Shown here piece by piece: positions 32,920-63,364 of a stretch of 64,000 nt of DNA. The notes beneath the pieces were generated by a model, which worked only from the letters and a program-made list of their open reading frames with translations, was not told where the DNA came from and searched no databases. A program made the translations under genes and the position numbers. Position 1 is the stretch's first letter. Each line of letters starts with the position of its first letter. The DNA comes from Candidatus Nomurabacteria bacterium (lineage in GTDB: Bacteria; Patescibacteriota; WWE3; UBA101185; UBA10185): assembly GCA_020631855.1 (NCBI GenBank), contig JACKGU010000001.1, positions 295,601-359,600 of the forward strand. Direction: 5' to 3'.

Positions 32920-32976
32920 GATAGCAAAAATTAAGACGGTGCTTAAATAATCGGCTGTGTACACAGGCCGTAATTT

Positions 32977-34671: not shown

Positions 34672-34730
34672 TTATCTTTTCAATACAGAGAGGGGTTGTA
34701 GTTTTAGATCAAGAATTATAAAGTACTTTT

Positions 34731-36542
34731 GTGAACCATACAGCCAATATTAGAAATTTTAGTATTATTGCCCACATTGATCACGGCAAGTCTACCTTGG
34801 CGGATCGCTTGCTGGATATAACCGGCACTATAGAAAAAAGACAACTCAAAGATCAAACGTTAGACAGCATGGAGCTTGAAAGAGAAAAGGGTATAACAAT
34901 AAAGCTAAAGGCCGTTCGCATGAACTATACCCTCGATTCAATTGAATATCAGCTTAATCTCATTGATACGCCCGGACATGTGGACTTTTCCTATGAAGTT
35001 TCACGCTCTCTGGCTGCTTGTGAGGGCGCTGTTTTAGTTGTAGATGCTACACAAGGAATTCAGGCACAAACCGTTTCAAATGTTTATAAAGCTATAGATG
35101 CTAACCTAACAATCATTCCGGTCATAAATAAGGTAGATTTGGCAGGAAGTAATGTGGAAAAAACGGCCCAAGATTTAGTGGATACTTTTGGTTTTAAACA
35201 CGATGAAATTTTGCAAATCTCGGCAAAAACCGGCCTCGGGATTGAACGGCTACTTTCCGAAATTATTAAGAGAGTTCCTGCACCAAAAGATACCTATGAC
35301 AAGAATTTTCGAGGATTAATATTTGATACATATTACGATGAGTTCTTGGGCGTCATCGCGCTTATTAAGGTCGAGGACGGAAAAATTGAACTCCAGGATG
35401 TGAAAAACCATAGAAAAATATACTTAATGGCAACCAAAGCAGAGTCTGATCCTGAAAGTATAGGAATAATGGTTCCCCACCGCAAAGAAGTGGGATCTTT
35501 ATCTGCGGGGGAGGTTGGCTTCATCTCGACAGGCGTCAAAGATATAAAAACGGTCCGAGTAGGCGACACGGTTACTTTTAAAGATATCGCCTCCGCAACA
35601 CAGCAACTGGAGGGATACAAAGAAGTTAAACCCTTCGTATTCATGTCCATCTACCCAATTGAAAACGATAAATACCCTGAATTAAAAGACGCTTTAGAGA
35701 AGCTGTCTTTATCAGATTCTGCCCTTCAATACACCGCCGAAAGTAACTCCGCTCTAGGATTCGGATATCGTTGCGGTTTTTTAGGACTTCTTCACGCTGA
35801 CATAGTGCAGGAAAGGCTTGAAAGAGAATACAATCTGGAACTGATATCGACTACCCCTAGCGTAGAATATACCGCAACACTAACCACAGGGGAAACCGTA
35901 AAAGTGAAAAACCCATCAGAAATGCCCGAGCCCACTAGAATACAGAGTGTGCAAGAGCCGTGGATTATTTTACATATTTTTTCGCCGGCAACATACACAG
36001 GAGGGATAATTACCCTATGTGAAAGTCGGAGGGGCATTATGAGAAAAATGGAATACCCTACACAAGACACGATTATGTTTGAATACGAACTGCCTCTATC
36101 TGAACTTGTAAATAATTTTTTCGATGAACTCAAAACAATATCTTCCGGATATGCATCAATTGATTACGACTTTCTGGAATACAGAAATGTAAAAGTAATA
36201 AAAATGGACATTCTGGTACACGGAGCTGAGGTTGAGCCTTTGGCACAAATAGTTCTAAAAGATAACGCCCAAGCAATCGGCAAAAAAATAATAAACAGAC
36301 TAAAAGATGTAATACCACGACAACAGTTTGCAGTCGCTGTTCAAGCCGCCATAGGCGGAAAAATCATAGCTCGCGAGACCATACCGGCCATGAGAAAAGA
36401 TGTTCTATCGGGCATATATGGAGGCCACAGAGAAAGAAAAGATAAGTTATTAGAAAGACAAAAAAAAGGTAAAAAAAGAATGAAGAGACTAGGAAAAGTT
36501 GATATTCCGCAAGAAGCCTTTAGACAAGTTCTAAGTAATTGA
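34731..36542 (+). CDS. lepA: Elongation factor 4 (LepA), GTG start
   Basis: IRNFSIIAHIDHGKSTLADRLL; DTPGHVDF; LepA C-terminal domain. Confidence 0.95.
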   Translation: MNHTANIRNFSIIAHIDHGKSTLADRLLDITGTIEKRQLKDQTLDSMELEREKGITIKLKAVRMNYTLDSIEYQLNLIDTPGHVDFSYEVSRSLAACEGAVLVVDATQGIQAQTVSNVYKAIDANLTIIPVINKVDLAGSNVEKTAQDLVDTFGFKHDEILQISAKTGLGIERLLSEIIKRVPAPKDTYDKNFRGLIFDTYYDEFLGVIALIKVEDGKIELQDVKNHRKIYLMATKAESDPESIGIMVPHRKEVGSLSAGEVGFISTGVKDIKTVRVGDTVTFKDIASATQQLEGYKEVKPFVFMSIYPIENDKYPELKDALEKLSLSDSALQYTAESNSALGFGYRCGFLGLLHADIVQERLEREYNLELISTTPSVEYTATLTTGETVKVKNPSEMPEPTRIQSVQEPWIILHIFSPATYTGGIITLCESRRGIMRKMEYPTQDTIMFEYELPLSELVNNFFDELKTISSGYASIDYDFLEYRNVKVIKMDILVHGAEVEPLAQIVLKDNAQAIGKKIINRLKDVIPRQQFAVAVQAAIGGKIIARETIPAMRKDVLSGIYGGHRERKDKLLERQKKGKKRMKRLGKVDIPQEAFRQVLSN

Positions 36543-37445
36543 CGAGATATAGGACTTCAATTTTTTCAGCTTAATTACATCTTCTAGCCTTCTGGTGCCG
36601 GCCTTTATCTCCATATAATATTCAAAAATATTAGTCACATCGTTGAGAAACTTCTTTGTTGAAACAACATACCCGGCTATTAGAACGAGCTCGGAGATTT
36701 GTTTAGTACCCATAAATACATCGCGCACAACAAGTAGCAAAATACTAAGTTTAAAAAAAGACACTAATGATTGAAGGCTGAACCAGGAAATAAAACGAAA
36801 AGACTGAACATCACCATACTTACCCCAAACTTTCTCAGCATAACTTTTTACGCGATCATTAACCAAAAGCCGTGAGTAATATTTCTCTCTAACCTGATCG
36901 AATTTTTCGTATAAAACCTCATAGTGTCTTGAAAGAAAATAAGAAGAGATAATATAGAAAGATATCGCAGAAACCTCTAAATAAAAGACTCGTACATCAA
37001 TCAACAATAAGATGAAAGGGATTAAAATAAACTCAACAATTCCCTGAAAACCATCGTCAATCATATGAGTTACAAACCGTCTAATGGCATGAGTTAAATT
37101 ACGAACTGCCTGCACTACCTCCATACGGTCTTTTTCTTTCGGAGAAAACGTTATTAAAAAGTCTGTTTGAACTTCAACAAGCTTTTTTTCTGTCGTAAAA
37201 GAAATCAAAGATTTTGATCCGACACGAACAAGGTGCTCAATAATTTCTGTAACTAGAATAAGGGCAAGGGGCAAAACGATTTCGCTAAGGGACATTCTTT
37301 GCTCTATACGATAAATGCCTAATGAAAATAGAAAAGTTACTAAAAGAGGCCCTAAGGTGCAAATAAGACGCAACAAAATATACAGGTTATACTCTCGCGT
37401 GAAAAAAAATTTAATTAAGTAGTTTCTTATAAGACGGGCAGTCAT
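36531..37445 (-). CDS. Polytopic membrane protein resembling an ABC-exporter transmembrane domain without ATPase domain
   Basis: About 6 hydrophobic helices; ends where an NBD would begin; 12-nt convergent overlap with lepA. Confidence 0.3.
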   Translation of the reverse strand: MTARLIRNYLIKFFFTREYNLYILLRLICTLGPLLVTFLFSLGIYRIEQRMSLSEIVLPLALILVTEIIEHLVRVGSKSLISFTTEKKLVEVQTDFLITFSPKEKDRMEVVQAVRNLTHAIRRFVTHMIDDGFQGIVEFILIPFILLLIDVRVFYLEVSAISFYIISSYFLSRHYEVLYEKFDQVREKYYSRLLVNDRVKSYAEKVWGKYGDVQSFRFISWFSLQSLVSFFKLSILLLVVRDVFMGTKQISELVLIAGYVVSTKKFLNDVTNIFEYYMEIKAGTRRLEDVIKLKKLKSYISSIT

Positions 37446-49056: not shown

Positions 49057-50157
49057 ATGCCCGACAAAAACTTTAGCATTGCAGACACCCCCAATCTTTC
49101 AGCCGCAGACTACGCATTTGCGGAACTCAGAACACTTTCGTCACTGGTTAATGACACCAGAGATATTCCTGAAGACCTTAAAGATAGGCTGAACCAGATG
49201 CTCGATCGTCTTGATAGAATGGCTAAGCTTGGTCACTATGCCCAAGAGTTCGATACCCTTTCCAGATATATCGAGACTATTGCAGAAATACCTTGGGGAG
49301 AAAAAACAAAAGACAATCTTGATCTAACAGAAACAAAAAATATTTTGGATAAGAATCACTATGGAATGGAGTGGGTCAAAGAGAGAATACTTGAATACCT
49401 AGCAACTATAAAACTTTTAAAAGACAGACAAAAAGAAGGGGTTGGAAAATCTCCGGTTTTGTTATTAGTGGGCTTACAGGGCATTGGAAAAACCACACTT
49501 GCAATGTCAGTAGCTGAAGCCTTGGGCAGAAAATTTATTAGAATATCCATGGGAGGTATAGGGAGTACTCTAGAATTAAGAGGAAGAAGCAAAGCCTACC
49601 CTGAAGCTGAGCCCGGGCAAATAATTAAAGCGTTGATCAAAACTGGCGTTAAAAACCCGGTAATCTTACTTGATGAAATTGAAAAAGCAAGCGGAGAGTC
49701 GGGGCTTAGATCGGATATCATGGCGATACTTCTGGAAATACTTGATCCGAGCCAAAATAACAGCTTTAGAGACCATTATATTGACTATCCGATAGATTTA
49801 TCCGACGTATTGTTCATTTGCTCAGCAAACAACACCGGCACAATAACAACTGCACTTATGGATAGGTTGGAAATAATCAAAATGCCTTCCTACACGGATG
49901 CGGAAAAAGCTACTATAGCCAAAGACTACTTATTACCTAAAGTTATCGAACTAAGTGGACTAAAGCCGGAAGAATTAGAAATTGATCCGGCTCTTTGGCC
50001 TAGCATTGTGCGTCCTTTTGGTTTTGATAGTGGTATTAGAAGCCTAAGTAGAACTTTAGAGGCTATTTGCAGAAAAGTAGCCAAAGAAATAGTTGAAGGA
50101 AAAACTAAAAAAGTAAGGGTAGACGAATCAAATTTAAAATACTACCTTCCCAGCTAA
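49057..50157 (+). CDS. Lon-like AAA+ ATPase module without N-terminal LON domain and without S16 protease domain
   Basis: NHYGMEWVKERILEYLA...LLLVGLQGIGKTTLAMSVAEALGRKFIRISMGG...ILLDEIEKA...ILDPSQNNSFRDHYIDYPIDLSDVLFICSANN...LMDRLEIIKM = Lon AAA+ core; ends at ...NLKYYLPS, the junction where the protease domain begins in Lon. Confidence 0.8.
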   Translation: MPDKNFSIADTPNLSAADYAFAELRTLSSLVNDTRDIPEDLKDRLNQMLDRLDRMAKLGHYAQEFDTLSRYIETIAEIPWGEKTKDNLDLTETKNILDKNHYGMEWVKERILEYLATIKLLKDRQKEGVGKSPVLLLVGLQGIGKTTLAMSVAEALGRKFIRISMGGIGSTLELRGRSKAYPEAEPGQIIKALIKTGVKNPVILLDEIEKASGESGLRSDIMAILLEILDPSQNNSFRDHYIDYPIDLSDVLFICSANNTGTITTALMDRLEIIKMPSYTDAEKATIAKDYLLPKVIELSGLKPEELEIDPALWPSIVRPFGFDSGIRSLSRTLEAICRKVAKEIVEGKTKKVRVDESNLKYYLPS

Positions 50158-52570: not shown

Positions 52571-54832
52571 ATGTCCGCAAGAAGAGGCCGTAAAAAAAAG
52601 TTTAAGCTGAAGTTTAATATACGTGGGGAAACTGTACGATCAATTGCAGCGTTATTACTAATATTGCTGGCTGGGGTCGTGCTAGTGTCCTTTGCTGCAG
52701 GAGTAGTCTCAGTTGACTCATCTATTCAAAGAGTTCTAAAAATTCTATTTGGATACGCGCACCTTGCTCTAGTGCCGATTTTCCTTATCACCGGACTACT
52801 CTTAATAGACAGTATTGATTGGAGATTTGTAGAGGGCCGGGTCTTAGCCGGCTTCAGTATACTACTTTTCGGAGCATCGGGATTACTTCACGCATTCTAT
52901 CTCGGAGACGGCTACGAGGCAGCAAAAGCAGGAAAAGGCGGGGGAATAGTAGGATACAAGATTTTTTCTGTACTAAGTTCTAATACCAGCTCTCTTGGGG
53001 CAATTCTTGTTCTGCTTACCCTGGTTATAATCTCTATCCTTCTTATCTGGGATAAGCCTATCGAAGAACTTGCAGCAAAACTTTCTGCATTAGGTCTACC
53101 CTTCTCTAAACTCAAGGCGGCGGGACTTGAAAGAAAATCAAAGAACGCTAGCACACACCAGAAAGAGGATATTCACATTACTTCAGGACTCAATCTAAAC
53201 TTCAGCGATAACACAGGTTACAACGAAAGCATAGAGAGTTCTCCGGAAGAAGATGCAACAAATTATCACGACGAAGATTCTGCAGCCGAGGAGATAGAAA
53301 TAATTCCTTCTCTAGCCGAGCCTAAATCTAAGAATTCTCACGAATTCAAAACAAATCCAAAAGTAACAGATACTTTGGCCCCGGCACCCCTTCCCTATTC
53401 GGATAGGGTGTGGGAAAATCCCCCCTTGGATATCTTAAACGATCCTCCGAATACTCCCGTAGATCGAGGAGACATCAATCAGAGATCGGCAATTATTGTT
53501 AACGCCTTAGCTTCTTTCGGCATAAATGTTGTGGTTAAAGACGTGCGTTTTGGTCCCTCTGTAACCCAGTATGCGCTAGAAACGGAGCCGGGAACCAAAA
53601 TTACTAAAATTTTAAGCCACCAATACGACTTAGCCCTAGCTTTGGCTTCGCCCACAGGTTCGGTTAGAATAGAAGCTCCAATCCCCGGAAAAAGTTTAAT
53701 CGGTGTGGAAGTACCAAATAACACGAGGGTCGTAGTTCATTTCAAAGAACTCTTACTGTCTGAGCAGATGAAAAACATGAAATCAAAAATCGGCATGGTT
53801 CTGGGGCTTGATGTTGGGGGGCAGCCGAAAGTTTATAATATCGCAAAAATGCCACACTTACTTATCGCAGGAGCTACAAACTCAGGTAAATCGGTACTCA
53901 TTCACAACATAATGTTCTCAATACTTTTTAGGGCAAGTCCGGAAGAAGTAAAGTTCATACTCATAGATCCCAAGCGCGTTGAACTAATGTACTACAACGA
54001 CATACCGCACTTGCTAACCCCTGTAATCACAGAGACAGAAAAAGCTCCTGCAGCTTTTAAATGGTTGGTGGGCGAAATGACCAGGAGATACAACCTTCTG
54101 GAATCGGCGCACGTAAGAAATATAGAATCTTACAACGAAAAGTCGGGCTTTCAAGCAATGCCATACATAGTAATGATAGTCGACGAGCTGGGGGAAATAA
54201 TGGTAACCGATCCTGCAGCAGTAGAAAAAAGTATTATAAGACTAGCTCAATTAGCAAGGGCTACCGGAATACACTTGGTGTTAGCGCTGCAAAGGCCTTC
54301 CGCAAATGTAGTTACAGGACTTATTAAAGCCAACGTGCCTTGTAGGATCGCGTTTAATGTTACCAGCCAGGTAGATTCCAGGGTAATTATCGACCAGCCG
54401 GGGGCGGAAAAATTGCTAGGAAAAGGAGACATGCTTTTTATTCCTCCAGACGACTCCAAACCCACCAGAATTCAAGGCTCTTATATTGCCGATAACGAAA
54501 TCAATGCCCTGGTATCATATCTTAAAAGCACAGGCGTAAAACCCGACTATAAAGAAGAGATTCTCTCCACACACGAGCCGGAAAAAAGCGTCTCTCTAGG
54601 AGGAGATAATGTCGATGAATATTATGACGAAGCTATGCGAACTGTAATTTCGGAAGGCAGGGCTTCCGCATCCTTATTGCAGAGACGACTGCAGATAGGT
54701 TATTCACGAGCAGCAAGAATTCTGGACGAGCTTGAGGCAAACGGTGTTATAGGTCCGGCGAGAGGTGCAAAACCCAGAGAAATTCTAAACAACTCCATTG
54801 CCGATCTTGAAGACGAAGAAGATGTGATATAA
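52571..54832 (+). CDS. ftsK: DNA translocase FtsK/SpoIIIE
   Basis: N-terminal TMs; LIAGATNSGKS; IVDELGEIM; LALQRPSANVVTGLIKAN; C-terminal gamma winged-helix. Confidence 0.95.
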   Translation: MSARRGRKKKFKLKFNIRGETVRSIAALLLILLAGVVLVSFAAGVVSVDSSIQRVLKILFGYAHLALVPIFLITGLLLIDSIDWRFVEGRVLAGFSILLFGASGLLHAFYLGDGYEAAKAGKGGGIVGYKIFSVLSSNTSSLGAILVLLTLVIISILLIWDKPIEELAAKLSALGLPFSKLKAAGLERKSKNASTHQKEDIHITSGLNLNFSDNTGYNESIESSPEEDATNYHDEDSAAEEIEIIPSLAEPKSKNSHEFKTNPKVTDTLAPAPLPYSDRVWENPPLDILNDPPNTPVDRGDINQRSAIIVNALASFGINVVVKDVRFGPSVTQYALETEPGTKITKILSHQYDLALALASPTGSVRIEAPIPGKSLIGVEVPNNTRVVVHFKELLLSEQMKNMKSKIGMVLGLDVGGQPKVYNIAKMPHLLIAGATNSGKSVLIHNIMFSILFRASPEEVKFILIDPKRVELMYYNDIPHLLTPVITETEKAPAAFKWLVGEMTRRYNLLESAHVRNIESYNEKSGFQAMPYIVMIVDELGEIMVTDPAAVEKSIIRLAQLARATGIHLVLALQRPSANVVTGLIKANVPCRIAFNVTSQVDSRVIIDQPGAEKLLGKGDMLFIPPDDSKPTRIQGSYIADNEINALVSYLKSTGVKPDYKEEILSTHEPEKSVSLGGDNVDEYYDEAMRTVISEGRASASLLQRRLQIGYSRAARILDELEANGVIGPARGAKPREILNNSIADLEDEEDVI

Positions 54833-54878: not shown

Positions 54879-55166
54879 ATGGAATTACAAACATTTTTAA
54901 TAATTACCTTAATATTCATCACTTTAAGTATAGTTGCAGTTTCTGTTTACATAATACTAATACTTAGAGAGTTTAAATCCACGGTACAAAAAGTTAATGG
55001 TGTCCTCTCTGTTACCGAGACACTATCGACTAAGCTCGCTAATACGAGCATAACCTTTGGAAATATTGTAAATGCCGTAATGGGTGCTGTGAAAACTGTC
55101 AAAACAATAAGATCCATAGCTGATTTTGGAGATGAGGAGAATAAAGATGCCAAAAGCAAAAGGTAA
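54879..55166 (+). CDS. DUF948-like small membrane protein
   Basis: Single N-terminal TM then helical region; typical partner of YtxH. Confidence 0.5.
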   Translation: MELQTFLIITLIFITLSIVAVSVYIILILREFKSTVQKVNGVLSVTETLSTKLANTSITFGNIVNAVMGAVKTVKTIRSIADFGDEENKDAKSKR

Positions 55167-55446
55167 ATTCATAAAAGGTTTGTTTCTTGGTGCTGCTATT
55201 GGAACCGTGCTCGGGCTTCTTAACGCACCGGCAAAAGGCTCTGAAACAAAAAAAAGCCTTAAAAGCAAGTCAGAAAACTTTAAAAAGAAAATCAATGCTT
55301 TAGAACAAGAAGATATTGAGCAGCTCAAAAAAAGAGTAAATAAAGATGTGAAAAGCTCTATAAGCAAAAGTCTTAAAATACTAGCTTCAAAAATAGAAAA
55401 AGAAAACGAAAAATCTAACAAGGATAAAACAGATCGTATTGCATAG
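55147..55446 (+). CDS. YtxH-like protein (start taken at MPKAKG)
   Basis: KGLFLGAAIGTVLGLLNAPAKGSETKK = YtxH glycine-zipper signature. Confidence 0.55.
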   Translation: MPKAKGKFIKGLFLGAAIGTVLGLLNAPAKGSETKKSLKSKSENFKKKINALEQEDIEQLKKRVNKDVKSSISKSLKILASKIEKENEKSNKDKTDRIA

Positions 55447-55475
55447 TACTCCCGGAATAATGATACAATTACAGT

Positions 55476-56285
55476 ATGGACCTTAATGCTGCTCAAAACA
55501 CCAATAATCAACAGCTAAACTCGCACCCAGACGATGCTCAGAAAAATAAGCTCAATACGATTTTACCGGGCACCAATTCTCAAAGCTTGGGAGGGAATTC
55601 TCCGATTACAAGCATTGCAGGGGTGTCGGACGACGATCTTCAAAACAAAAGCATAAATCTAGACACGCAAGATACCCTAAGTACAGAAAATAAGACCAAC
55701 ACAAACAAAGAAATAGAAAAAGCAAAAGGCTACAAAGATGACATAAGTAAAATTGTATATGACTTTCTAGAAAAAAACGGAGAGAGCCTAGACAGTATGG
55801 AAGAGGTTCCATCAGACATAGGACCCTCAATAAATAACCATCCCGCAACACTTGGCCCCGGAAAAGGAAGAAGGGAGATTTTTACAAGCCCTGTAATAGG
55901 AACTATTAGTGAAAATGCGCCTATAAGCCATCGCGAAACCTTCCAAACTGAAATAGACCCGGCTTCTCAAACAGAGCAGATTTCTGTAGCTAAGGCAGAA
56001 ACATCCGCTCAAGAAGAAAAAAATTCTTCGGAAATTCAAAGTATACAGGAAGTATTACAAAACCCACAACCAGATTCCGAGAATTACGATAAAATATCAA
56101 CATTGATTCCAGAAACCGAACCTATACCGCAGCCGGATAGTGATTTGAACGTTGTTGACCTGAGAACAGGCCATGAAAATTTGCAACAAATTGCCGATCC
56201 AATAGATAAATTAACTGAAGAAGCAGATGAGAAAGAGGCAGACTTTATAACAAAAGTGGAGGATACACATGCTGTCGCTAACTGA
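55476..56285 (+). CDS. Acidic, Q/N/S/T-rich low-complexity (intrinsically disordered) protein
   Basis: 269 aa, no TM, no motif; 17-nt overlap with downstream ATPase gene. Confidence 0.4.
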   Translation: MDLNAAQNTNNQQLNSHPDDAQKNKLNTILPGTNSQSLGGNSPITSIAGVSDDDLQNKSINLDTQDTLSTENKTNTNKEIEKAKGYKDDISKIVYDFLEKNGESLDSMEEVPSDIGPSINNHPATLGPGKGRREIFTSPVIGTISENAPISHRETFQTEIDPASQTEQISVAKAETSAQEEKNSSEIQSIQEVLQNPQPDSENYDKISTLIPETEPIPQPDSDLNVVDLRTGHENLQQIADPIDKLTEEADEKEADFITKVEDTHAVAN

Positions 56286-58677
56286 TATAGCCTACAACAT
56301 CTTCTGGATACTCTTTTACATTATTTTCTTGGCGAGCACTATATTAGGAATATTTTATATGCTTGCCAAAACCAAAAGACAAAGATTTCTAAAAAACAAA
56401 CAATATAATTTGACCTTCTTCCATGTTAAAGTACCACAACAAAACGAATTCGAAATAGATGCGGCAGAACAACTTTTTGCAGGCGTGGCAGGTTTGAGAA
56501 GATCAACTCTGGAAGGACTTTTGAAAGGCCAATACCAAGTCTCATTTGAGATCTTGGCCAAACACGGGCAAATAGGCTTCTATATAGTAATGCCTGACGA
56601 ATTGGTGGAATTTATGGAAAAGCAGATTAACGGGGCCTATCCTACTGCCGAAATAGACATTATTGATCCAAACGAAGTTTGGGACAGAGGGCACTTCACA
56701 GCTATCGCAGAGCTAAAACTTAAAGGACCGGCATTCTACCCTATTAGAACGATAAAAGAGAAAGAAGGTGACCCGCTAAGCACTCTCACCTCGGTACTAA
56801 CAAAGCTGAAAAAAGACGAGGTTATAGCTATTCAGCTTGTAACCTCACCTGCCAGTAACTGGTGGAGGGCTGCAGGAAATGCTTTTATCGGACATGTCAA
56901 ACACGGCGGAAATCCCGAAAAGAAAAGTGCCCCAGACAACTCCATGCTGGAAGGTGTTGAGAAAAAAATAGGAAAAAGCGGGCTTGATGTCGTTGTGAGA
57001 GTTGTCTCAATAGCTGAAACCAAACACATAGCGGAAAGCCACATAATGAACGTTGTAACCGCCTTCGAGCAGTATACTGATGTTAAATACAATAAATTCA
57101 AAAAAAGCAGAGTTTTATTTAAAACAAAATTTGTAAATGATTTCATTTACAGAAACATAACGCCTCTAAATATATACATCCCGATTTTATATAACACACT
57201 TTATAGCAGAACCTCGGTACTGAATATTACTGAGATGGCAAACATCTTCCACATGCCTAACAAAAACATACAAACTCCAAACATTCTGTGGCTAATTGCA
57301 AGAAAGGCGTCAGCCCCGTCAAACATACCTCACGAAGGCCTGTATTTAGGAATCAATCAGTTTAGAGGCTCACAGAGAGGTATCTATATGAAAGAGAAAG
57401 ATCGTACACGACATATGTATATTATAGGGCAAACGGGCACAGGTAAATCCGAGTTTATGAAGACACTGGTACTACAAGATATTGCCGCGGGAAAAGGTTT
57501 GGCTCTAATTGATCCTCACGGAAGCGATATAGACGATATCTTAGAAAAAATCCCGGAAAGCAGAATAGACGACGTAATACTTTTTGATGTTTCAGATATA
57601 GAACGCCCGATGGGATTAAACATGCTTGAAGCTGAAACCGAGGAAGAGAAACACATGATTATTAACTCATTTATTGCCTTGTTATATAAGCTATACGACC
57701 CAAACAGACAAGGTATCATGGGCCCTCAACTTGAAAGGGCTATAAGAAACGTTATGCTAACCGCAATGGTAGATAAAGAATCAACCATGGTAGATGTTCT
57801 AAGGCTATTGATCGACAACAAATATGTAGAAACTTTTATACCAAGAATTCAAGATCCACTAGTTAAACGGTACTGGACTGATGAAATGGCCAACACAAGC
57901 GACTACCATAAAGGCGAGAAAATGGGCTATTTTGTATCAAAATTTGATAGGTTCGTAACAGAGAGGACCATGAGAAATATACTAGGGCAACCAAAAAGTG
58001 CATTTAATTTTAACAAGATTATGGCAGAAAAAAAGATACTGCTCGTAGACCTGTCTAAAGGTAAGATTGGAGAAGAGAATTCAAACTTTATCGGCCTGCT
58101 TCTGGTTCCACGAATACTTGCTGCAGCTCTATCCAGAGCTTCCCTTTTAGGTAAAGAGGATTTCCCTGATTTTTATCTTTATGTAGATGAGTTTCAAAAC
58201 TTTGCCACACCTGACTTTGCTACTATACTGTCGGAAGCCAGAAAATATAAACTAAATTTGGTTGTCGCGCACCAATTTGTGGCACAGTTAACCGACGACA
58301 TTAAAGAAGCCGTGTTTGGTAACGTAGGAACAACTTGTGTTTACAGGGTTGGTCCGGACGATGCCGAATATCTTGAAAAACAGTTTGACCCTTATTTCAC
58401 AAAGTCAGATTTATTAAACTTGCCAATTGGAAACGCTTACATGAGGCTGCTTGTCGACGGCCACCCAACAACGCCTTTTTCCCTTGCTGTAGATTGGGAC
58501 ATGGTTAATAAAACTAAAAAAGATCCTTCTGTGGCAAAGAGAATAAGAGAAAACTCAAGCATGAAATACGGAACACCAGTAAATGAGGTTGAGGAATACA
58601 TAAATAAAAGGGCAGGGCTGAATAAACAAGGCGAGGATAGCCAACTACTTGAAAAAAGAAGTTTAATACCTTTTTAA
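56269..58677 (+). CDS. Membrane-anchored FtsK/HerA-superfamily ATPase with VirD4/TraG/TraD-like (type IV coupling protein) C-terminal signature
   Basis: N-terminal TM hairpin; about 340-aa insert domain; Walker A IIGQTGTGKS; Walker B LYVDEFQNF; ARKYKLNLVVAHQFVAQL...VGTTCVYRVGPDDAEYLEKQF resembles TraG-D_C consensus (Rs.gi.l.l..Qs..QL ... eTaeylS). Confidence 0.6.
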   Translation: MLSLTDIAYNIFWILFYIIFLASTILGIFYMLAKTKRQRFLKNKQYNLTFFHVKVPQQNEFEIDAAEQLFAGVAGLRRSTLEGLLKGQYQVSFEILAKHGQIGFYIVMPDELVEFMEKQINGAYPTAEIDIIDPNEVWDRGHFTAIAELKLKGPAFYPIRTIKEKEGDPLSTLTSVLTKLKKDEVIAIQLVTSPASNWWRAAGNAFIGHVKHGGNPEKKSAPDNSMLEGVEKKIGKSGLDVVVRVVSIAETKHIAESHIMNVVTAFEQYTDVKYNKFKKSRVLFKTKFVNDFIYRNITPLNIYIPILYNTLYSRTSVLNITEMANIFHMPNKNIQTPNILWLIARKASAPSNIPHEGLYLGINQFRGSQRGIYMKEKDRTRHMYIIGQTGTGKSEFMKTLVLQDIAAGKGLALIDPHGSDIDDILEKIPESRIDDVILFDVSDIERPMGLNMLEAETEEEKHMIINSFIALLYKLYDPNRQGIMGPQLERAIRNVMLTAMVDKESTMVDVLRLLIDNKYVETFIPRIQDPLVKRYWTDEMANTSDYHKGEKMGYFVSKFDRFVTERTMRNILGQPKSAFNFNKIMAEKKILLVDLSKGKIGEENSNFIGLLLVPRILAAALSRASLLGKEDFPDFYLYVDEFQNFATPDFATILSEARKYKLNLVVAHQFVAQLTDDIKEAVFGNVGTTCVYRVGPDDAEYLEKQFDPYFTKSDLLNLPIGNAYMRLLVDGHPTTPFSLAVDWDMVNKTKKDPSVAKRIRENSSMKYGTPVNEVEEYINKRAGLNKQGEDSQLLEKRSLIPF

Positions 58678-58687
58678 GAAAGACGCT

Positions 58688-60565
58688 ATGGTAGAAACAG
58701 CAACCGCCGCAAATGACGCTTTAACAGCATTAAAGGGAAGGAGCGAAACAAAAGTTTCGCCTCTTGAAGAATTTTGGACAAATATAAATGCGCTTACTGC
58801 GGCTTCGCGACAACTGCTGACTAAAATAGAAACCAGCCCCCAGAGCGGACTGAATCAACGCAGAGCCGCACAGCTAGCTAGACAGGCTTTGGCTAGCTAT
58901 GAGATGACGACTAGCCTGACAGAAAATCCCACTAATAGAGAGGAAATTAATGCCCTTTCCAGGTTAGGCGCTGCGACAAACATCGACCCAACAAATCTAT
59001 ACAGAGAGACAATATTACTACAGCCGGAAGTACACTCGTATGAATATTCGGTCAAGCTGTTATTCTCCCACATAGTGTCTATGACCACTGAGGACAGAAG
59101 CAACACCACAAAAAACTTAGCATTGGTTTTAGCCGGGAATTGCTTAGACGGGAGTAAGGTTGATGTAAGAAAAATTCAAAACGAGCTCAGAGAATTAAAT
59201 TTTCCGAACCACCACTTATCAGAAGCAGCAGAGGCCATCGCTGCTATAATCCGGCATACGCCTTACAATCTAACAGATCATCAAGAAAAATTGGGGGTAA
59301 CAGGATACCCGGAAGTCTTGGCTAAAGCTTATAAGAGACTCTACGATCTAGCAACCAAACTTGATCCGGATACACCGCCTACAAAAGCGGAAGAAAGGTC
59401 ACAGCACCAACCCTATGCCAATTGGGAAGCCAGGGCCAAAGAAAGAGAATCGATACACTACAACAGTAATCCTAGAGAACACAAAATATTTTCACGTAAA
59501 GGAGAGATTTTGACTGCCAAGGGTTCGGAGAATAAAACAGCCCAAGTCTTAATTCCAACTGCCATACTTACCAGAACCGTACCTTTGGCGGACTTTGCAG
59601 GCAATGACAGGGCTTTCAATAAAGGATACGTAAAACTACAGCAGGTATTTACCTGCACAACATTTCAAGAAGTCGAAGCTACCCTTGAAATGCTAAACGC
59701 AGCATCTATTGCAGAAGAAGAAAAAACAGCACAGGTACCCATATATGTTCCTAAAACCGTGGTTCAAAATGGAAAAACAACAATTGAATATGAGATAACC
59801 TACATGGAGATGCCGATTGGAACCTATAATAGCTGGCGTAAAGCTTTAATGGAGGCTCGCAAATCCTACCTTAGAGCAGGATTTTCTATTCAAAACCAAG
59901 ATATAACTGCTGGAGTACGCTTAGCAACAGAGCAAGAGAATGCCTATGCAGAACAGACAATGTTGAATAGATATCAAGAGCTTTTGTCTGGACCTAGCCA
60001 TATCAAAGATTCTCTAGACGCATGGATGAGTCAAAGTCATTCAAGGGACAGATTTTACATTAAAGAATTGATGCAAAATACAATGGAACTAGTAAATGAG
60101 TTGACTGAAGAGCTTAATTTGACCCGAAACCCTCGCAATATAACATTAGAGGCTATGAAAACTCTTTATGAAGAAGGGCATGAGCAGCACCCACTGACGA
60201 TGGAAAAAGAAATAACACAGATGTTCGACAACAGAATGGCCGAGCGCTCTAACTATTATGTTGCAATGAAGGTAGCTTTGACAACTCTTGAAAATGTAAA
60301 TGCTTTACCGCCGCCAAGAGATCGCAAAGAAGCAAAAGAACAGATTAGAATGATTATAAATGTTCAAACACAAATAAAACAAATAATGCTTTTCTTGGCA
60401 CTTCAAGAAAAGGGCGTCTCCGAGAGCCGTGCCTCACAAGTCGCGCTGGAAAACTTCCCGGAACACTCAGTGATTAAAGCTCAAGTACCTTATAGGGCTA
60501 GAAATAGTCAAGCCAGAAGGGTTGCAGGAAAGAGACAAGCTGTTAGCAACCAAGGCTCTAGTTGA
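58688..60565 (+). CDS. Large (625 aa) soluble hypothetical protein adjacent to coupling-protein-like ATPase
   Basis: Long ORF, no TM, no recognisable motif. Confidence 0.5.
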   Translation: MVETATAANDALTALKGRSETKVSPLEEFWTNINALTAASRQLLTKIETSPQSGLNQRRAAQLARQALASYEMTTSLTENPTNREEINALSRLGAATNIDPTNLYRETILLQPEVHSYEYSVKLLFSHIVSMTTEDRSNTTKNLALVLAGNCLDGSKVDVRKIQNELRELNFPNHHLSEAAEAIAAIIRHTPYNLTDHQEKLGVTGYPEVLAKAYKRLYDLATKLDPDTPPTKAEERSQHQPYANWEARAKERESIHYNSNPREHKIFSRKGEILTAKGSENKTAQVLIPTAILTRTVPLADFAGNDRAFNKGYVKLQQVFTCTTFQEVEATLEMLNAASIAEEEKTAQVPIYVPKTVVQNGKTTIEYEITYMEMPIGTYNSWRKALMEARKSYLRAGFSIQNQDITAGVRLATEQENAYAEQTMLNRYQELLSGPSHIKDSLDAWMSQSHSRDRFYIKELMQNTMELVNELTEELNLTRNPRNITLEAMKTLYEEGHEQHPLTMEKEITQMFDNRMAERSNYYVAMKVALTTLENVNALPPPRDRKEAKEQIRMIINVQTQIKQIMLFLALQEKGVSESRASQVALENFPEHSVIKAQVPYRARNSQARRVAGKRQAVSNQGSS

Positions 60566-60628: not shown

Positions 60629-61834
60629 ATGTTTAAACTGCCATTTAAAATAAATTTCAATAAAAAATCAAAAACGGATACTTTTTTAACAATAGACATA
60701 GGATCAAGCACAGTCAAAACACTAGCTTTTTATAATGACAGCGAAAGCAGATTAAAAGTAATCGGGCTGGGGAAGGAATTTTTACCCGAGGGTGCGGTAC
60801 GAGCCGGATATATAACTGATTTAAAAAGTGTCATAGAAGCAGTGGACGAAACAATTTATCAGGCCCTTGCTAATACGGAACACAGAATTACAGATGCGAT
60901 AATAGGAATATCCGAAAACCTGTGCTATTCGCAAGTTACAACCGGCCGGCTAAACAGAACTACGCCGGGAGAACTGGTTACAGAGAAAGAGCTGGATAAT
61001 TTGAAATACAAAATAATTGATGCTGCGTACAACACGGCCCTAGATGATTTTGTCTATAAAACCGGCGATCTTTCAACAGAGCTTATTCATATAAGCTCTA
61101 TTCCGGCCCATACAAAACTTGATTCAAAGATTGTTGACGACCCAACCGACTTGCCGGGAGCAAAAGTTGAGCTGGCAATTTACAATGCCTATTCCCCCGA
61201 ATATCATACAAAGCAACTGCAAAAAATTGCTGACACGCTAAAACTTTCAGTTTTAGCTATGGTTCCCAACATGTTCTCGTTAGGGGAAGCCCTAAAAAAA
61301 CTCACAAAGGACAATGAGTTGGATTGTATCATTTTAGATATCGGGGGAGAAACAACAGATGTAGGAATTATGTTTGGAGGGGGCCTTATAACTACAAAAA
61401 GCTTACCTATAGGAGGAAGGCACTATACAGAACAGCTATCTTTACAGAGCGGCCTTACTTGGGCAGAATCTGAAAAAAAGAAGAATCAGTACTATTTCGG
61501 ACAAACAGCAGATACAGAAACATCTTTCATCGAAACAGTAATGACTGAAACAACCGACCTGTGGCTCAGCGGGCTGGAAACCCTGTTTAATGAATTTAAT
61601 GGGGTCAGGACCTTTGCATCTGATATATTTGTAGTTGGGGGAGGAAGCTTGCTACCCGATATAATGGCAGCTCTAGAGTCCAGGCCATGGACAAAATCCA
61701 TACCTTTTAGAGAGCCGCCAAGAATAAAACGGGTCAGCATTTCTGAGCTGGATTTTGCTAGAGATACAACCGGCAAACTAAATGAATTGGATTATATTCA
61801 AGCCCTGTCTTTAGGTTTGATGGGAGAATATTAA
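60629..61834 (+). CDS. FtsA/PilM-family actin-like ATPase
   Basis: FLTIDIGSSTVKTLAF...LKVIGLG...GYITDLKSVIEAV phosphate-1 region; ILDIGGETTDVGIM phosphate-2; 401 aa. Confidence 0.7.
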   Translation: MFKLPFKINFNKKSKTDTFLTIDIGSSTVKTLAFYNDSESRLKVIGLGKEFLPEGAVRAGYITDLKSVIEAVDETIYQALANTEHRITDAIIGISENLCYSQVTTGRLNRTTPGELVTEKELDNLKYKIIDAAYNTALDDFVYKTGDLSTELIHISSIPAHTKLDSKIVDDPTDLPGAKVELAIYNAYSPEYHTKQLQKIADTLKLSVLAMVPNMFSLGEALKKLTKDNELDCIILDIGGETTDVGIMFGGGLITTKSLPIGGRHYTEQLSLQSGLTWAESEKKKNQYYFGQTADTETSFIETVMTETTDLWLSGLETLFNEFNGVRTFASDIFVVGGGSLLPDIMAALESRPWTKSIPFREPPRIKRVSISELDFARDTTGKLNELDYIQALSLGLMGEY

Positions 61835-63364
61835 ATGACAAAATTTGAAATTGAAATACACGACGATTTAATAAATGTGCTTGGAAAACTACAAACAATA
61901 AATGACGACGGAATTGAGCTCATTATTCCTGAAGGTTCAGTAATTTTTGAAAACATTTTAAATCTTAGAATTATTCAAAAAGAACTTGAAAAATCTGGAA
62001 AAACAATACATTTCGAGACGTCGGATGAAAACGGAAAAAGACTTATAGAAAATCTTGAAAATGACTCCTCCGGCCTTTCTTCCGAGCTGGATTTTACAGA
62101 AGCTGAAGCAACTGAAATAAACCCAAAAACACACAGAAAAAAACAACGCACGGTCTCGCTTGCATTACCTAAATTTAAATTTTCAGGGGGTACAAAATTT
62201 AAAATAGCAGGTTTAATAGGAGTTGTGACCGCCGTAATCATAGGAAGTTTATACCTATTGATTTGGAAACAGCATAAGGCAATCGTAAATTTAGTCGTGG
62301 AGGCACAGCCTCTGGTTAAGAGCGTACAGATTAGAGTGGCAACAAACAGCGAAACAAATACCGAACAAAAAACTCTAAAAGGCTCACAAGTAAGTACAAG
62401 CACCGTCCAGACCGCGAGCGTGCCAACAACAGGGGAAAAACTGGTAGGTAACCAAGCCTCAGGAACTGTAAAAATTTACAACAAAACAACAAATGGTAAA
62501 ACCTTTAAAAAAGGTACGGTTCTTGTCTATAAAAAAGACGATAAAACCCTAAAATATACACTTGACGAAGAAGTAGAAGTACCTGAAAGAACGGAAGATA
62601 TCTTGCAGGATCCGCCATTAATAACTTGGGGTGAAAAAGAAGTTGATGTTACAGCAGAGGAAATAGGAAATTCTTATAATATTGACTCGGGCGAAAGTTT
62701 GGATTTTGATGATTTCGACAAGGACGATTACACTGCAAAGAGCACGACAAAAATCAACGGGGGCAGCAGCGAGACACTTAAAATTGTGGCCCAAGAAGAT
62801 ATAGACAACCTACTTATCGAGCTGGAAAAAAGTGACGATAAAACTAAAACCGAGCTACAGCAAAAAACTTCGACAGGACGAAAATTAATTCCCGGGTCAA
62901 TCAGCCTTCAGACAACAAAAGATTCCTTTAGCGCCGAACTAGGAGACGAGGCGGAAAATCTAGAGCTTGTCAGAGAAGCGACGGCCACAGGGCTAACTTA
63001 TTCCGAAAATGAACTGGAAGTTCTACTAGACAGACTCGTAGATGATTTCGTCCCGGAAGGCTTTGAGCTATCGACAAAAGACAAGGAGATAAAAGCAGAG
63101 GTCTTAGGTGCAACGGAAACTACGACACTTTCAAGCGAACAGGCCGATTTACAGGTAACCATTAAGGCTTACGTGATACCAAAAATTGATGAGATCGAGC
63201 TAAGGGAGAATTTGGCAGGGGCCCCGTTGTCGAAAGCAGAAGAAATATTAAATGCTATTTCTAATGTTGCAACCTATTCTTTAGATGTAAAACCAAATAT
63301 TCCGCTGCTTAATTCCCTTCCCCATAATCCGGAAAATATAGAGATAACAGTAACTAAAAGGTAA
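61835..63364 (+). CDS. Bitopic membrane protein, about 120-aa cytoplasmic N-term, one TM, about 360-aa extracytoplasmic domain; translationally coupled to FtsA-like gene
   Basis: TM AGLIGVVTAVIIGSLYLLIW; TAAATG overlap with upstream gene. Confidence 0.5.
   Translation: MTKFEIEIHDDLINVLGKLQTINDDGIELIIPEGSVIFENILNLRIIQKELEKSGKTIHFETSDENGKRLIENLENDSSGLSSELDFTEAEATEINPKTHRKKQRTVSLALPKFKFSGGTKFKIAGLIGVVTAVIIGSLYLLIWKQHKAIVNLVVEAQPLVKSVQIRVATNSETNTEQKTLKGSQVSTSTVQTASVPTTGEKLVGNQASGTVKIYNKTTNGKTFKKGTVLVYKKDDKTLKYTLDEEVEVPERTEDILQDPPLITWGEKEVDVTAEEIGNSYNIDSGESLDFDDFDKDDYTAKSTTKINGGSSETLKIVAQEDIDNLLIELEKSDDKTKTELQQKTSTGRKLIPGSISLQTTKDSFSAELGDEAENLELVREATATGLTYSENELEVLLDRLVDDFVPEGFELSTKDKEIKAEVLGATETTTLSSEQADLQVTIKAYVIPKIDEIELRENLAGAPLSKAEEILNAISNVATYSLDVKPNIPLLNSLPHNPENIEITVTKR

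What the first reader, a model, noticed from the sequence alone, without database searches (positions are those of the whole stretch)
54879..60565. Orphan VirD4/TraG-like coupling-protein ATPase module embedded between ftsK and ftsA-like genes
- **Gene cluster.** Directly downstream of ftsK lies a co-directional, tightly spaced set (several overlaps): a DUF948/YtxH pair, a 269-aa acidic disordered protein, an 802-aa membrane-anchored P-loop ATPase, and a 625-aa soluble protein of unknown function.
- **ATPase features.** The 802-aa protein has an N-terminal TM hairpin, an unusual about 340-aa domain before the Walker A box (IIGQTGTGKS), and a C-terminal region (VDEF...ARKYKLNLVVAHQFVAQL...VGPDDAEYLEKQF) that matches the TraG/TraD/VirD4 coupling-protein (TraG-D_C) pattern rather than FtsK's TQRP motif.
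- **What is missing.** No VirB4, VirB6 or relaxase is recognisable nearby.
- **Inference.** This looks like an orphan coupling-protein-like translocase with a long novel insert and an uncharacterised partner. It might be a DNA/protein export or uptake module, possibly relevant to an epibiotic lifestyle if this is a Saccharibacteria-like organism.
Basis: partly seen in the sequence, partly recalled or inferred. Interest (0 to 1): 0.55.

Follow-up and report, generated by a model that had tools for sequence, protein, structure and literature searches.

The report
Orphan coupling-type ATPase, core to Patescibacteria
The 802-aa protein is a real, membrane-anchored type IV coupling-protein-like ATPase from a family found in nearly all Patescibacteria (CPR); its "novel" front domain has a VirB4-type fold, its supposed 625-aa partner is not conserved, and what it moves is still unknown.

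Summary

- **What the ATPase is.** The 802-aa protein has one N-terminal membrane helix. A 310-aa domain follows (Pfam DUF8128), which a confident AlphaFold model matches only to the N-terminal domain of VirB4. The C-terminal half is a TrwB/VirD4-like ATPase with a helical insert and intact catalytic motifs.
- **How widespread it is.** The family has 21,229 representatives and occurs in every major CPR class. It is as conserved as PNPase or FtsK.
- **Its context.** It is almost never next to type IV secretion system (T4SS) genes: 1 of 81 loci here, and 148 of 5,713 in the 2025 survey.
- **Relatives elsewhere.** Full-length relatives sit in the coupling-protein slot of Bacillus conjugation operons, in haloarchaeal T4SS clusters and in large Bacillus phages.
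- **The 625-aa "partner".** It has no homologs and is absent from five of seven WWE3 relatives.
- **The recurring neighbour.** This is a small gene abutting the ATPase start; here it is the acidic 269-aa protein.
- **The ftsK/ftsA setting.** It is specific to WWE3.

Orphan coupling-protein (T4CP) homologs in Patescibacteria were already reported in 2025, so this is a new member of a known kind. Function is unresolved. My best guess is a coupling or translocase motor for a T4SS encoded elsewhere.

The parts
56269..58677 (+). 802-aa membrane-anchored DUF8128 / T4CP-like ATPase, the core of the finding
   Evidence: ORF. Pfam DUF87, TraG-D_C and TrwB_AAD_bind are above cutoff. Homologs carry PF26449 = DUF8128. 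AF2 model: pLDDT 89.8, pTM 0.81. Foldseek matches VirB4, TrwB and HerA.
56278..56400 (+). N-terminal membrane anchor: one long helix (residues 4-44, hydrophobic 7-35), followed by the basic stretch KTKRQR. The rest of the protein is therefore predicted to be cytoplasmic.
   Evidence: Hydropathy scan and AF2 secondary structure. Topology is inferred from the positive-inside rule.
56401..57336 (+). DUF8128 domain (residues 45-356), with a VirB4 N-terminal-domain-like alpha/beta fold
   Evidence: Domain model pLDDT 92.5. The 13 best Foldseek PDB hits are all TrwK/VirB4 (E 2.6e-7 to 6e-6, probability 1.0, TM 0.40-0.46). The next fold class reaches TM 0.18.
57337..58503 (+). RecA-type ATPase domain (residues 357-745). 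Walker A is GQTGTGKS (387-394) and Walker B is D640-E641. ARKY (R658, K659) and AHQ (Q669) are conserved. An all-helical insert spans residues 458-586.
   Evidence: These residues are invariant in the 119-sequence alignment. They align to TrwB GATGTGKS / DEL / GRKAGLRVVAGLQ. Secondary structure.
55476..56285 (+). 269-aa acidic protein, probably disordered, with a conserved C-terminal ~45-aa motif. It overlaps the ATPase start by 17 nt and is the only recurrent neighbour type across CPR.
   Evidence: pI 4.30. The C-terminus is 51% identical to the L001 counterpart. The WWE3 motif is aligned. Analogous small genes at position -1 occur in most CPR loci.
55126..55446 (+). YtxH-family small membrane protein. 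The true start is probably an internal ATG. It is conserved in this position in WWE3 only.
   Evidence: PF12732 E=1.2e-13. Present in L001, L004, L085 and L087.
54879..55166 (+). 95-aa small membrane protein (DUF948 only sub-threshold); a WWE3-specific neighbour
   Evidence: Positional counterparts of 88-94 aa occur in L001, L085 and L087, without detectable similarity.
58688..60565 (+). 625-aa lineage-specific orphan ORF inserted between the ATPase and ftsA-like genes. It is not a conserved partner.
   Evidence: No homolog among 5.8 billion proteins except a fragment of itself. No Pfam, NCBIfam, PHROG or PADLOC hit. Absent in five WWE3 relatives. Codon usage is native.
52571..54832 (+). FtsK (context only)
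   Evidence: FtsK_4TM, alpha, FtsK_SpoIIIE and gamma domains.
60629..63364 (+). Divergent FtsA-like protein (401 aa) plus a 509-aa single-pass membrane protein. In most WWE3 genomes this pair directly follows the ATPase (context only).

Best explanation
**What it is.** The 802-aa gene encodes a core Patescibacteria ATPase of the VirD4/VirB4 branch of the FtsK-HerA superfamily. It belongs to a distinct subtype, here called the DUF8128-type coupling protein.

**Anatomy.** One N-terminal helix anchors it in the cytoplasmic membrane. A cytoplasmic VirB4-like N-terminal domain follows. The C-terminal half is a TrwB-like RecA ATPase with an all-helical insert and a complete catalytic set.

**Inferred mechanism.**
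- By analogy with TrwB and VirB4, it assembles into a ring at the membrane.
- It uses NTP hydrolysis to recruit and push or pull a macromolecular substrate (protein or nucleic acid) through a membrane channel.
- The most parsimonious channel is the monoderm-type T4SS (VirB4/TrsD/VirB3/VirB6) that most Patescibacteria encode elsewhere. That system has no coupling protein of its own in its cluster.
- The small acidic protein translated from the overlapping upstream gene is proposed to be a dedicated adaptor, regulator or substrate that binds through its conserved C-terminal motif.

**Shown versus inferred.**
- Shown: the fold, the motifs, the distribution, the level of conservation and the gene contexts.
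- Inferred: oligomeric state, substrate, coupling to the T4SS and the role of the small protein.
For: **Fold and sequence**
- The ATPase matches TrwB, DotL and Cag-beta by sequence and fold.
- DUF8128 matches only the VirB4 N-terminal domain.
- Walker A, Walker B, the R658-K659 pair and Q669 are invariant in 119 sequences.

**Conjugation contexts of full-length relatives** (N-terminal-domain HMM E=7e-25 and 2e-33)
- In Bacillus plasmids they head Tcp-like conjugation operons. They lie directly upstream of a Replic_Relax relaxase. The same operon has a separate AAA_10 VirB4 (E=8e-116).
- Haloarchaeal plasmids have a split version inside a pilin/T4SS cluster.

**Published background**
- The Patescibacteria VirB4 clade is nested in the monoderm MPF_FATA class.
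- T4CP homologs were found in 2,918 of 3,035 genomes.
- The Southlakia T4SS cluster lacks a recognizable coupling protein.

**Constraint**
- The protein is 65-67% identical across WWE3, and 81% in the ATPase domain. This equals or exceeds PNPase, RNase J and FtsK.

**Small upstream gene**
- One abuts the ATPase start in most lineages.
Against: - Only 1 of 81 CPR loci has a VirB4-like gene within 10 kb, and none has a relaxase.
- The survey found only 148 of 5,713 homologs near virB4. It found T4CP homologs in more genomes (96%) than VirB4 (80%).
- The t4cp homolog of Southlakia was not essential in Tn-seq, while the T4SS genes were. I did not verify that that gene belongs to this family.
- The upstream small proteins of different classes show no detectable homology to each other. 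Their equivalence rests on position only.
- No interaction, oligomer or substrate was tested.
Confidence: 0.4

Rival explanations
1. An exapted housekeeping translocase that works without any T4SS. It would act on the cell's own chromosome or division machinery, for example in DNA segregation or clearance, or in assembling an envelope structure at the septum. The small acidic protein would be its regulator.
For: - Conservation is at housekeeping level.
- Synteny is stable within each class and involves DNA and division genes: ftsK and a divergent ftsA in WWE3; a XerC/D-type recombinase (18 loci) and DivIC (13 loci) in Microgenomatia and Dojkabacteria; dnaX (17 loci); and gyrB in Saccharibacteria.
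- It is almost never near virB4.
- T4CP homologs occur in more genomes than VirB4.
- The authors of PMC12102498 themselves raise exaptation.
Against: - No neighbour is conserved across classes.
- Small CPR genomes are dense with housekeeping genes, so such neighbours are expected by chance.
- The recombinase gene is on the opposite strand.
- A canonical FtsK is already present.
- The reported Tn-seq non-essentiality argues against an indispensable division role.
- The higher detection rate than VirB4 could reflect about two copies per genome in incomplete assemblies.
Confidence: 0.3
2. An import motor for host-derived nucleic acid (RNA or DNA). The ATPase would pull polymers taken from the host across the epibiont membrane, feeding PNPase and RNase J for nucleotide salvage.
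For: - The family is nearly universal in a phylum that lacks nucleotide synthesis.
- In WWE3 the gene lies in one co-directional array with PNPase and RNase J.
- A 2026 preprint reports host RNA uptake by a Patescibacterium and states that the route is unresolved.
- comEC is dispensable for growth in Southlakia.
- Archaeal Ced-type importers use ATPases of this superfamily. Here only weak P-loop hits to CedB and CedD were seen.
Against: - The PNPase/RNase J linkage is WWE3-specific.
- No nucleic-acid-binding feature was tested.
- The CedB/CedD similarity is limited to the P-loop.
- Nothing here addresses the direction of transport.
Confidence: 0.12
3. A remnant of an integrated conjugative element, or a defence-island ATPase, with no core cellular role.
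For: - Relatives occur on plasmids and phages.
- ATPase-only relatives sit in a type III CRISPR / RT-Cas1 locus and in a NACHT/TPR island.
- PADLOC mad8 hit at 1e-15.
Against: - The gene is present in essentially all CPR classes with class-stable housekeeping synteny.
- It is as conserved as the housekeeping genes flanking it.
- Codon usage is native.
- No integrase, relaxase or flanking repeats were found in the window.
- The defence-context relatives lack DUF8128.
Confidence: 0.03

Closest known systems
TrwB / VirD4 / TraD type IV coupling proteins (PDB 1e9r, 1gki; DotL 6sz9; Cag-beta 8dol)
   Same: - RecA-type nucleotide-binding domain with a helical insert between Walker A and Walker B.
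- Sequence motifs GxTGTGKS, IDPxGD, DEF/DEL and (G/A)RK...Q align.
- Foldseek covers nearly the whole of TrwBdeltaN70 (TM about 0.6).
- The protein is membrane-anchored at the N-terminus.
   Different: - One membrane helix instead of two.
- An extra ~310-aa VirB4-like domain lies between the anchor and the ATPase.
- No linked relaxase or T4SS.
- Scores far below the curated full-length TraD/VirD4 cutoffs (43 bits against 366).
- Chromosomal, and nearly universal in its phylum.
VirB4 (TrwK of R388; PDB 7o42, 7o43, 8rtd)
   Same: - The same two-domain layout and a similar length (~800 aa).
- DUF8128 matches the VirB4 N-terminal domain specifically.
- The N-terminal anchor helix resembles, in function, VirB3 or VirB3-VirB4 fusions. 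This last point is an inference.
   Different: - No sequence-level VirB4 signature: AAA_10 scores 20.5 bits against a cutoff of 27.5, TIGR00929 scores 13 bits, and there is no PF03135 hit.
- In Bacillus plasmids the family coexists with a true AAA_10 VirB4 in the same operon, so it is a separate lineage.
"DUF87 domain-containing" proteins of Bacillus Tcp-like conjugative plasmids; Bacillus phage G gp156, phage JL gp150 and phrog_5156; haloarchaeal plasmid split versions
   Same: The same DUF8128 plus ATPase architecture, confirmed with a CPR-derived HMM and by fold.
   Different: - These proteins sit on mobile elements, next to a relaxase, a VirB4 or pilin genes.
- The Bacillus proteins lack the N-terminal membrane helix.
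- Identity to the window protein is only 21-29%.
- None has been characterised experimentally, as far as the searched literature shows.
Orphan T4CP homologs of Patescibacteria (Quinonero-Coronel et al. 2025, PMC12102498)
   Same: - VirD4-like.
- Nearly universal (2,918 of 3,035 genomes).
- Rarely near virB4.
- Possibly exapted.
- PGAP names family members [quoted passage not shown].
   Different: - I could not confirm gene by gene that this family is among their hits.
- In the passages I read, that paper does not mention the VirB4-like N-terminal domain, the small upstream gene or the plasmid and phage relatives.

Membership tests
Type IV coupling protein (VirD4/TraG/TraD/TrwB) | VirD4-type nucleotide-binding domain (Pfam TraG-D_C, TrwB_AAD_bind, T4SS-DNA_transf) | tested here: met
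   - TraG-D_C scores 25.9 bits (cutoff 22) and TrwB_AAD_bind 21.1 bits (cutoff 20.5).
- The family profile finds TrwB at 3e-7 and DotL at 5e-6.
- More distant family members also carry PF02534.
Type IV coupling protein (VirD4/TraG/TraD/TrwB) | All-alpha domain inserted in the nucleotide-binding domain | tested here: met
   Helices 458-586 lie between Walker A and Walker B. The Foldseek alignment spans about 410 of the ~420 TrwB residues.
Type IV coupling protein (VirD4/TraG/TraD/TrwB) | N-terminal membrane domain, typically two helices | tested here: inconclusive
   A membrane anchor is present, but it is a single helix.
Type IV coupling protein (VirD4/TraG/TraD/TrwB) | Genetic linkage to a relaxase and/or T4SS channel genes | tested here: not met
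   None in the 64-kb window. A VirB4-like gene lies within 10 kb in 1 of 81 CPR loci, and no locus has a relaxase. The rest of this genome could not be searched.
Type IV coupling protein (VirD4/TraG/TraD/TrwB) | Passing curated full-length models (NCBIfam TraD, VirD4-like CD1115) | tested here: not met
   43.4 bits against a cutoff of 366, and 42 bits against 250.
Type IV coupling protein (VirD4/TraG/TraD/TrwB) | Substrate recruitment to, and dependence on, a T4SS | not testable with these tools
   Needs genetics or biochemistry.
VirB4 | VirB4-type N-terminal domain | tested here: met
   Met at fold level only. The top 13 Foldseek hits are TrwK (E 2.6e-7 to 6e-6, TM 0.40-0.46).
VirB4 | Sequence signature of the VirB4 ATPase (AAA_10, CagE_TrbE_VirB, TIGR00929) | tested here: not met
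   AAA_10 scores 20.5 bits, below the 27.5 cutoff. There is no PF03135 hit. TIGR00929 scores 13.3 bits against 643.
VirB4 | Adjacent VirB3, VirB6 or VirB8 genes | tested here: not met
DUF8128-containing ATPases (PF26449 + PF01935 + PF12696) | DUF8128 domain followed by a DUF87/TraG-D_C ATPase in one ~800-aa protein | tested here: met
   The 120 best homologs (58-68% identity, most covering at least 94% of the query) carry PF26449. A domain HMM built here recovers 117 of 150 representatives. PF26449 is absent from the local Pfam copy, so the window protein was not scored against it directly.
FtsK/SpoIIIE | FtsK motor domain above threshold, plus alpha and gamma domains | tested here: not met
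   PF01580 scores 18.2 bits, below the 24 cutoff, and covers the P-loop only. There is no alpha or gamma domain. The true FtsK is the upstream gene.
HerA | HerA central domain together with HerA-specific N- and C-terminal domains and a NurA partner | tested here: inconclusive
   DUF87 scores 31.1 bits (cutoff 23.2), and Foldseek finds HerA 4d2i at 1.4e-12. There is no HerA_C hit and no NurA nearby. The N-terminal domain matches VirB4, not HerA.

The most novel reading that the evidence does not exclude
The DUF8128 ATPase is a third lineage, intermediate between VirB4 and VirD4, that became a universal stand-alone membrane motor of Patescibacteria. With its small acidic partner it would drive uptake of host-derived nucleic acid (RNA or DNA), or another epibiosis-specific transport step. 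That would make it the missing energiser of the nutrient-acquisition route, which recent work describes as unresolved.
Probability: 0.1. Interest if true: 0.85.

Novelty: new member of a known kind. Interest (0 to 1): 0.4.

Why it matters
Patescibacteria make up a large share of bacterial diversity, yet how they take material from their hosts is unknown. Their T4SS is essential in the one species tested, and no coupling protein has been assigned to it.

This family is the obvious candidate, for three reasons:
- It is present in almost every genome.
- It is as conserved as core RNA and DNA enzymes.
- It is related to proteins in the coupling-protein slot of monoderm conjugation operons.

Showing what it binds and moves would explain either how the Patescibacteria T4SS is fed or reveal a new housekeeping use of a conjugation ATPase. 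Its VirB4-like front domain on a VirD4-like motor also bears on how the two T4SS ATPase families diverged.

The specific gene in this window adds nothing beyond another family member. The "partner" that made it look like a special module is not conserved.

Tried and rejected
- **625-aa protein as a conserved partner: rejected.** It has no homologs. It shows no similarity to the 822-aa protein in the same slot of L001, nor to the long C-terminal extensions fused to the ATPase in other lineages. It is absent in five WWE3 relatives.
- **Recent foreign insertion of the 625-aa gene: rejected.** Codon usage is native and there are no flanking repeats.
- **ftsK/ftsA linkage as a property of the family: rejected.** It occurs in WWE3 only.
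- **Common ancestry of the class-specific upstream small proteins: not detectable.** hhalign gave nothing, apart from a weak Microgenomatia-Dojkabacteria signal.
- **Promoter and terminator scan: uninformative.** Counts equal the shuffled expectation.
- **No hits.** Rfam and tRNA scans of the window. Literature searches for PF26449, DUF8128, and CPR together with DUF87.
- **Linking my loci to the T4CP table of PMC12102498, and finding the VirB4 status of WWE3: failed.** The stored supplement is truncated.
- **Cluster look-up for taxonomy of the fused architectures: gave no names**.
- **pLS20 as the source of the Bacillus plasmid homologs: rejected.** The pLS20 T4CP (gene 48) is a canonical two-helix VirD4.
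- **Not attempted.** Structure prediction of the 625-aa protein. With no alignment, a usable model was unlikely, so the second job went to the DUF8128 domain.
Full report
**1. Observation**

- Spacing is tight. The 269-aa gene overlaps the 802-aa gene by 17 nt, and 10 nt separate the 802-aa and 625-aa genes.
- Upstream is a complete FtsK with 4TM, alpha, motor and gamma domains.
- Downstream is a divergent FtsA: TIGR01174 E=3e-29 but below the cutoff, and PDB FtsA at 2.8e-11. A 509-aa single-pass membrane protein and RuvX follow.
- YtxH is confirmed (E=1.2e-13). DUF948 is sub-threshold.
- The 269-aa protein has pI 4.3.
- The quoted ATPase motifs are present.
- The rest of the window is housekeeping: SecA, a lysyl-type class II tRNA synthetase (LysRS), SerRS, MurJ, LepA, DnaK, NusA, IF-2 and PNPase. 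No T4SS gene is among the scanned ORFs.
- The closest relatives are candidate division WWE3, not Saccharibacteria.

**2. Anatomy of the 802-aa protein**

An AlphaFold2 model built on 119 homologs is confident (pLDDT 89.8, pTM 0.81). It shows four parts:

- A single long N-terminal helix (residues 4-44, hydrophobic 7-35), followed by KTKRQR. This is a single-pass anchor with the bulk of the protein in the cytoplasm, not a hairpin.
- An alpha/beta domain, residues 45-356.
- A RecA-type ATPase, residues 357-745, with an all-helical insert at 458-586.
- A helical tail.

Walker A (GQTGTGKS), Walker B (D640-E641), R658-K659 and Q669 are invariant across 119 sequences. They align to the TrwB catalytic motifs.

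**3. What the domains are**

*ATPase.* At sequence level it is T4CP-like.
- TraG-D_C and TrwB_AAD_bind are above their Pfam cutoffs.
- The best NCBIfam hits are TraD and a VirD4-like family, though far below their full-length cutoffs.
- The family profile finds TrwB (3e-7) and DotL (5e-6) in the PDB, and no VirB4.
- Foldseek aligns about 410 columns to TrwB, with TM about 0.6 and rmsd about 5 A.

*N-terminal domain.* It is Pfam DUF8128 (PF26449), as annotated on the homologs. That model is absent from the local Pfam copy.
- Modelled alone, the domain reaches pLDDT 92.5.
- Its 13 best PDB matches are all the N-terminal domain of TrwK/VirB4: E from 2.6e-7 to 6e-6, probability 1.0, TM 0.40-0.46.
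- The next fold class drops to TM 0.18.
- The full-length model also ranks VirB4 first, over about 900 aligned columns.

So the protein combines a VirB4-style front half with a VirD4-style motor. It lacks the sequence signatures of VirB4.

**4. Distribution and constraint**

- The exhaustive search found 21,229 representatives at E<=1e-3 and 5,250 at E<1e-30.
- More than 599 species-representative genomes carry a relative. They span WWE3, Microgenomatia, Dojkabacteria, ABY1-type groups, Paceibacteria-type groups, Berkelbacteria, Saccharibacteria and Peribacteria.
- Across WWE3 genomes the protein is 65-67% identical, and 81% in the ATPase domain.
- The same comparison gives 54% for PNPase, 50-63% for RNase J, 53-61% for FtsK, 26-44% for the FtsA-like protein and 16-25% for the acidic protein.

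**5. Gene context**

*Within WWE3.* The conserved order is FtsK - small membrane protein - YtxH - small acidic protein - ATPase - FtsA-like - ~512-aa membrane protein - RuvX.
- The 625-aa gene is missing from L003, L004, L085, L086 and L087.
- L001 has an unrelated 822-aa protein in that slot.
- The 625-aa protein has no homolog anywhere. Its codon usage is native and it has no flanking repeats.
- It is therefore a lineage-specific gene and not a partner.

*Outside WWE3.* None of the window's neighbours accompany the ATPase. The recurrent neighbours are class-specific:
- a XerC/D-type recombinase (18 loci) and DivIC (13 loci);
- DnaX (17 loci);
- GyrB in Saccharibacteria;
- an uncharacterised 213-aa protein at position +1 (18 loci), which is fused to the ATPase in P0217 (E=3e-17).

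*The one recurring feature.* A small co-directional gene abuts or overlaps the ATPase start in most lineages. It has a low-complexity N-terminus and a class-specific conserved C-terminal motif.
- In WWE3 these proteins are all acidic (pI 4.0-4.6). They share the motif VD.R...D.LT..AD..E.(D/E)FI..V...H.
- The classes are not detectably homologous to each other.

*Linkage to T4SS genes.* Only 1 of 81 loci has a VirB4-like gene within 10 kb, and none has a relaxase.

**6. Relatives outside Patescibacteria**

- *Bacillus plasmids.* Full-length relatives (885 and 913 aa, annotated "DUF87 domain-containing protein") match the CPR-derived DUF8128 HMM at 7e-25 and 2e-33. In the 27.5-kb plasmid the gene heads a Tcp-like conjugation operon and lies directly upstream of a Replic_Relax relaxase. 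The same operon has a separate AAA_10 VirB4 (E=8e-116). The 65-kb plasmid shows a similar operon with TcpD and TcpE family genes. That is the coupling-protein slot.
- *Haloarchaeal plasmids.* They carry a split version (a 395-aa gene plus a 1,003-aa ATPase) inside a pilin/T4SS-type cluster.
- *Large Bacillus phages.* Phage G gp156, phage JL gp150 and phrog_5156 share the whole architecture. In phage G the next gene upstream is a VirB-like ATPase.
- *ATPase-only relatives.* These are 44-49% identical but lack DUF8128. They are fused to TPR arrays or other N-termini. They sit in a type III CRISPR / RT-Cas1 locus and in a NACHT/TPR island. A PADLOC mad8 hit (1e-15) is in line with this.
- *pLS20.* Its own T4CP is a canonical VirD4, so the Bacillus plasmids found here are of a different type.

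**7. What is already known**

- Quinonero-Coronel et al. 2025 report 5,713 VirD4-like T4CP homologs in 2,918 of 3,035 Patescibacteria genomes. Only 148 are near virB4. VirB4 itself was found in 2,417 genomes. The t4cp homolog of Southlakia was not essential, and the authors note possible exaptation.
- Wang et al. 2023 state that the essential Southlakia T4SS lacks recognizable coupling and relaxase proteins.
- No paper in the library mentions DUF8128 or PF26449.
- That this family is among the published T4CP hits is an inference from its PGAP names. I could not verify it gene by gene.

**8. Interpretation**

The protein is a functional member, under strong constraint, of a distinct DUF8128 subtype of the VirD4/VirB4 ATPase clade.

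- *Best explanation (0.4).* It is a membrane-anchored ring ATPase. It acts as coupling or translocase motor for the monoderm-type T4SS encoded elsewhere, and the small upstream acidic protein is its adaptor, regulator or substrate.
- *Main rival (0.3).* It has been exapted to a T4SS-independent housekeeping role. The DNA and division gene neighbourhoods and its wider distribution than VirB4 suggest this. Both points are weak, given the dense housekeeping content of small genomes and the incompleteness of assemblies.
- *Speculative reading (about 0.1).* It is a motor for uptake of host nucleic acid. This is prompted by the PNPase/RNase J array in WWE3 and by the unresolved RNA-uptake route.
- *Disfavoured (0.03).* It is a remnant of a mobile element or a defence system.

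**9. Verdict**

- The T4CP-like identity and the orphan status hold.
- The "novel insert" is a known Pfam domain with a VirB4 N-terminal fold.
- The 625-aa "partner" and the ftsK/ftsA embedding are lineage-specific accidents.

This is a new member of a known, uncharacterised kind. Interest is moderate (0.4) and attaches to the family, not to this locus.

Noticed in passing
Outside the window: protein P0209 (1,474 aa; no DNA held); protein P0246 in L084:8001-10421: ATPase domains 44-49% identical to the window protein, but without DUF8128, occur in two conflict-system contexts. One is a TPR fusion inside a type III CRISPR-Cas locus (Cas6, a Cas_NE0113-family protein, RT-Cas1, Cas2). The other is a NACHT/TPR/RelA-SpoT island. 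This suggests that conflict systems have recruited the same motor.
   Followed up: partly
L083:4045-5082 (phage JL StbA); L089:166-1338 (Bacillus plasmid ParM/StbA); window 60629-61834 (FtsA-like): An actin-fold ATPase lies close to the DUF8128 ATPase in three unrelated settings: ParM/StbA in phage JL, ParM/StbA in a Bacillus plasmid, and the FtsA-like gene in WWE3. This could be coincidence, since plasmids need partition genes. It is recurrent nonetheless.
   Followed up: no
window 60629-63364; L001:14955-17777; L085-L087: The divergent FtsA-like gene is always followed, with zero spacing or a small overlap, by a ~510-aa single-pass membrane protein. That protein has no family assignment beyond a weak Baseplate_J hint. 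No FtsZ is adjacent. The pair evolves fast (26-44% identity within WWE3).
   Followed up: partly
Loci L043-L075 (e.g. L049:12571-13212); protein P0217: An uncharacterised ~213-aa protein with no Pfam hit sits directly downstream of the ATPase in 18 ABY1- and Paceibacteria-type loci. It is fused to the C-terminus of the ATPase in P0217 (E=3e-17). It is a better-supported partner than the window's 625-aa protein.
   Followed up: partly
Proteins P0143, P0146, P0151-P0155, P0164 (1,584-2,006 aa): Some family members carry C-terminal extensions of 770-1,200 aa. The one sequence I read (P0143) is acidic, P/A/E/V-rich, low-complexity sequence ending in a short conserved segment. The extensions cluster together by BLAST. 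They recall the acidic, disordered upstream protein of WWE3.
   Followed up: partly
L090:8764-12952 (Natrinema pellirubrum plasmid pNATPE02): In haloarchaeal plasmids the DUF8128-like part is a separate 395-aa gene directly upstream of a 1,003-aa ATPase. The pair lies next to a second T4SS DNA-transfer-family ATPase and a pilin gene.
   Followed up: partly
window 22579-24762 (- strand): A 727-aa class II aminoacyl-tRNA synthetase (Pfam tRNA-synt_2, families D/K/N; read here as lysyl-type) carries a C-terminal HD-domain extension (residues 570-651). This is an unusual fusion.
   Followed up: no
window 49057-50157 (+ strand); also L001, L085-L087: A 366-aa Lon-like AAA+ protein (AAA plus Lon_lid) has no protease domain. 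It is conserved between PNPase and UDG in WWE3, at 64-73% identity.
   Followed up: no
window about 24000-37000: Gene orientation switches from the - strand to the + strand near 24.8 kb, and cumulative GC skew reaches its minimum around 34-36 kb. This is the pattern expected near a replication origin. No dnaA-sized ORF was identified there.
   Followed up: no
L001:8261-8968: One WWE3 genome has a RodZ-like HTH_25 protein inserted between FtsK and the small membrane proteins. This is further evidence that the stretch between ftsK and ftsA tolerates lineage-specific insertions.
   Followed up: no
L044:1128-6163; L064:9959-18587: Two loci carry two family members close together, in tandem in L044. 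This fits the roughly two T4CP homologs per genome reported in the 2025 survey.
   Followed up: no
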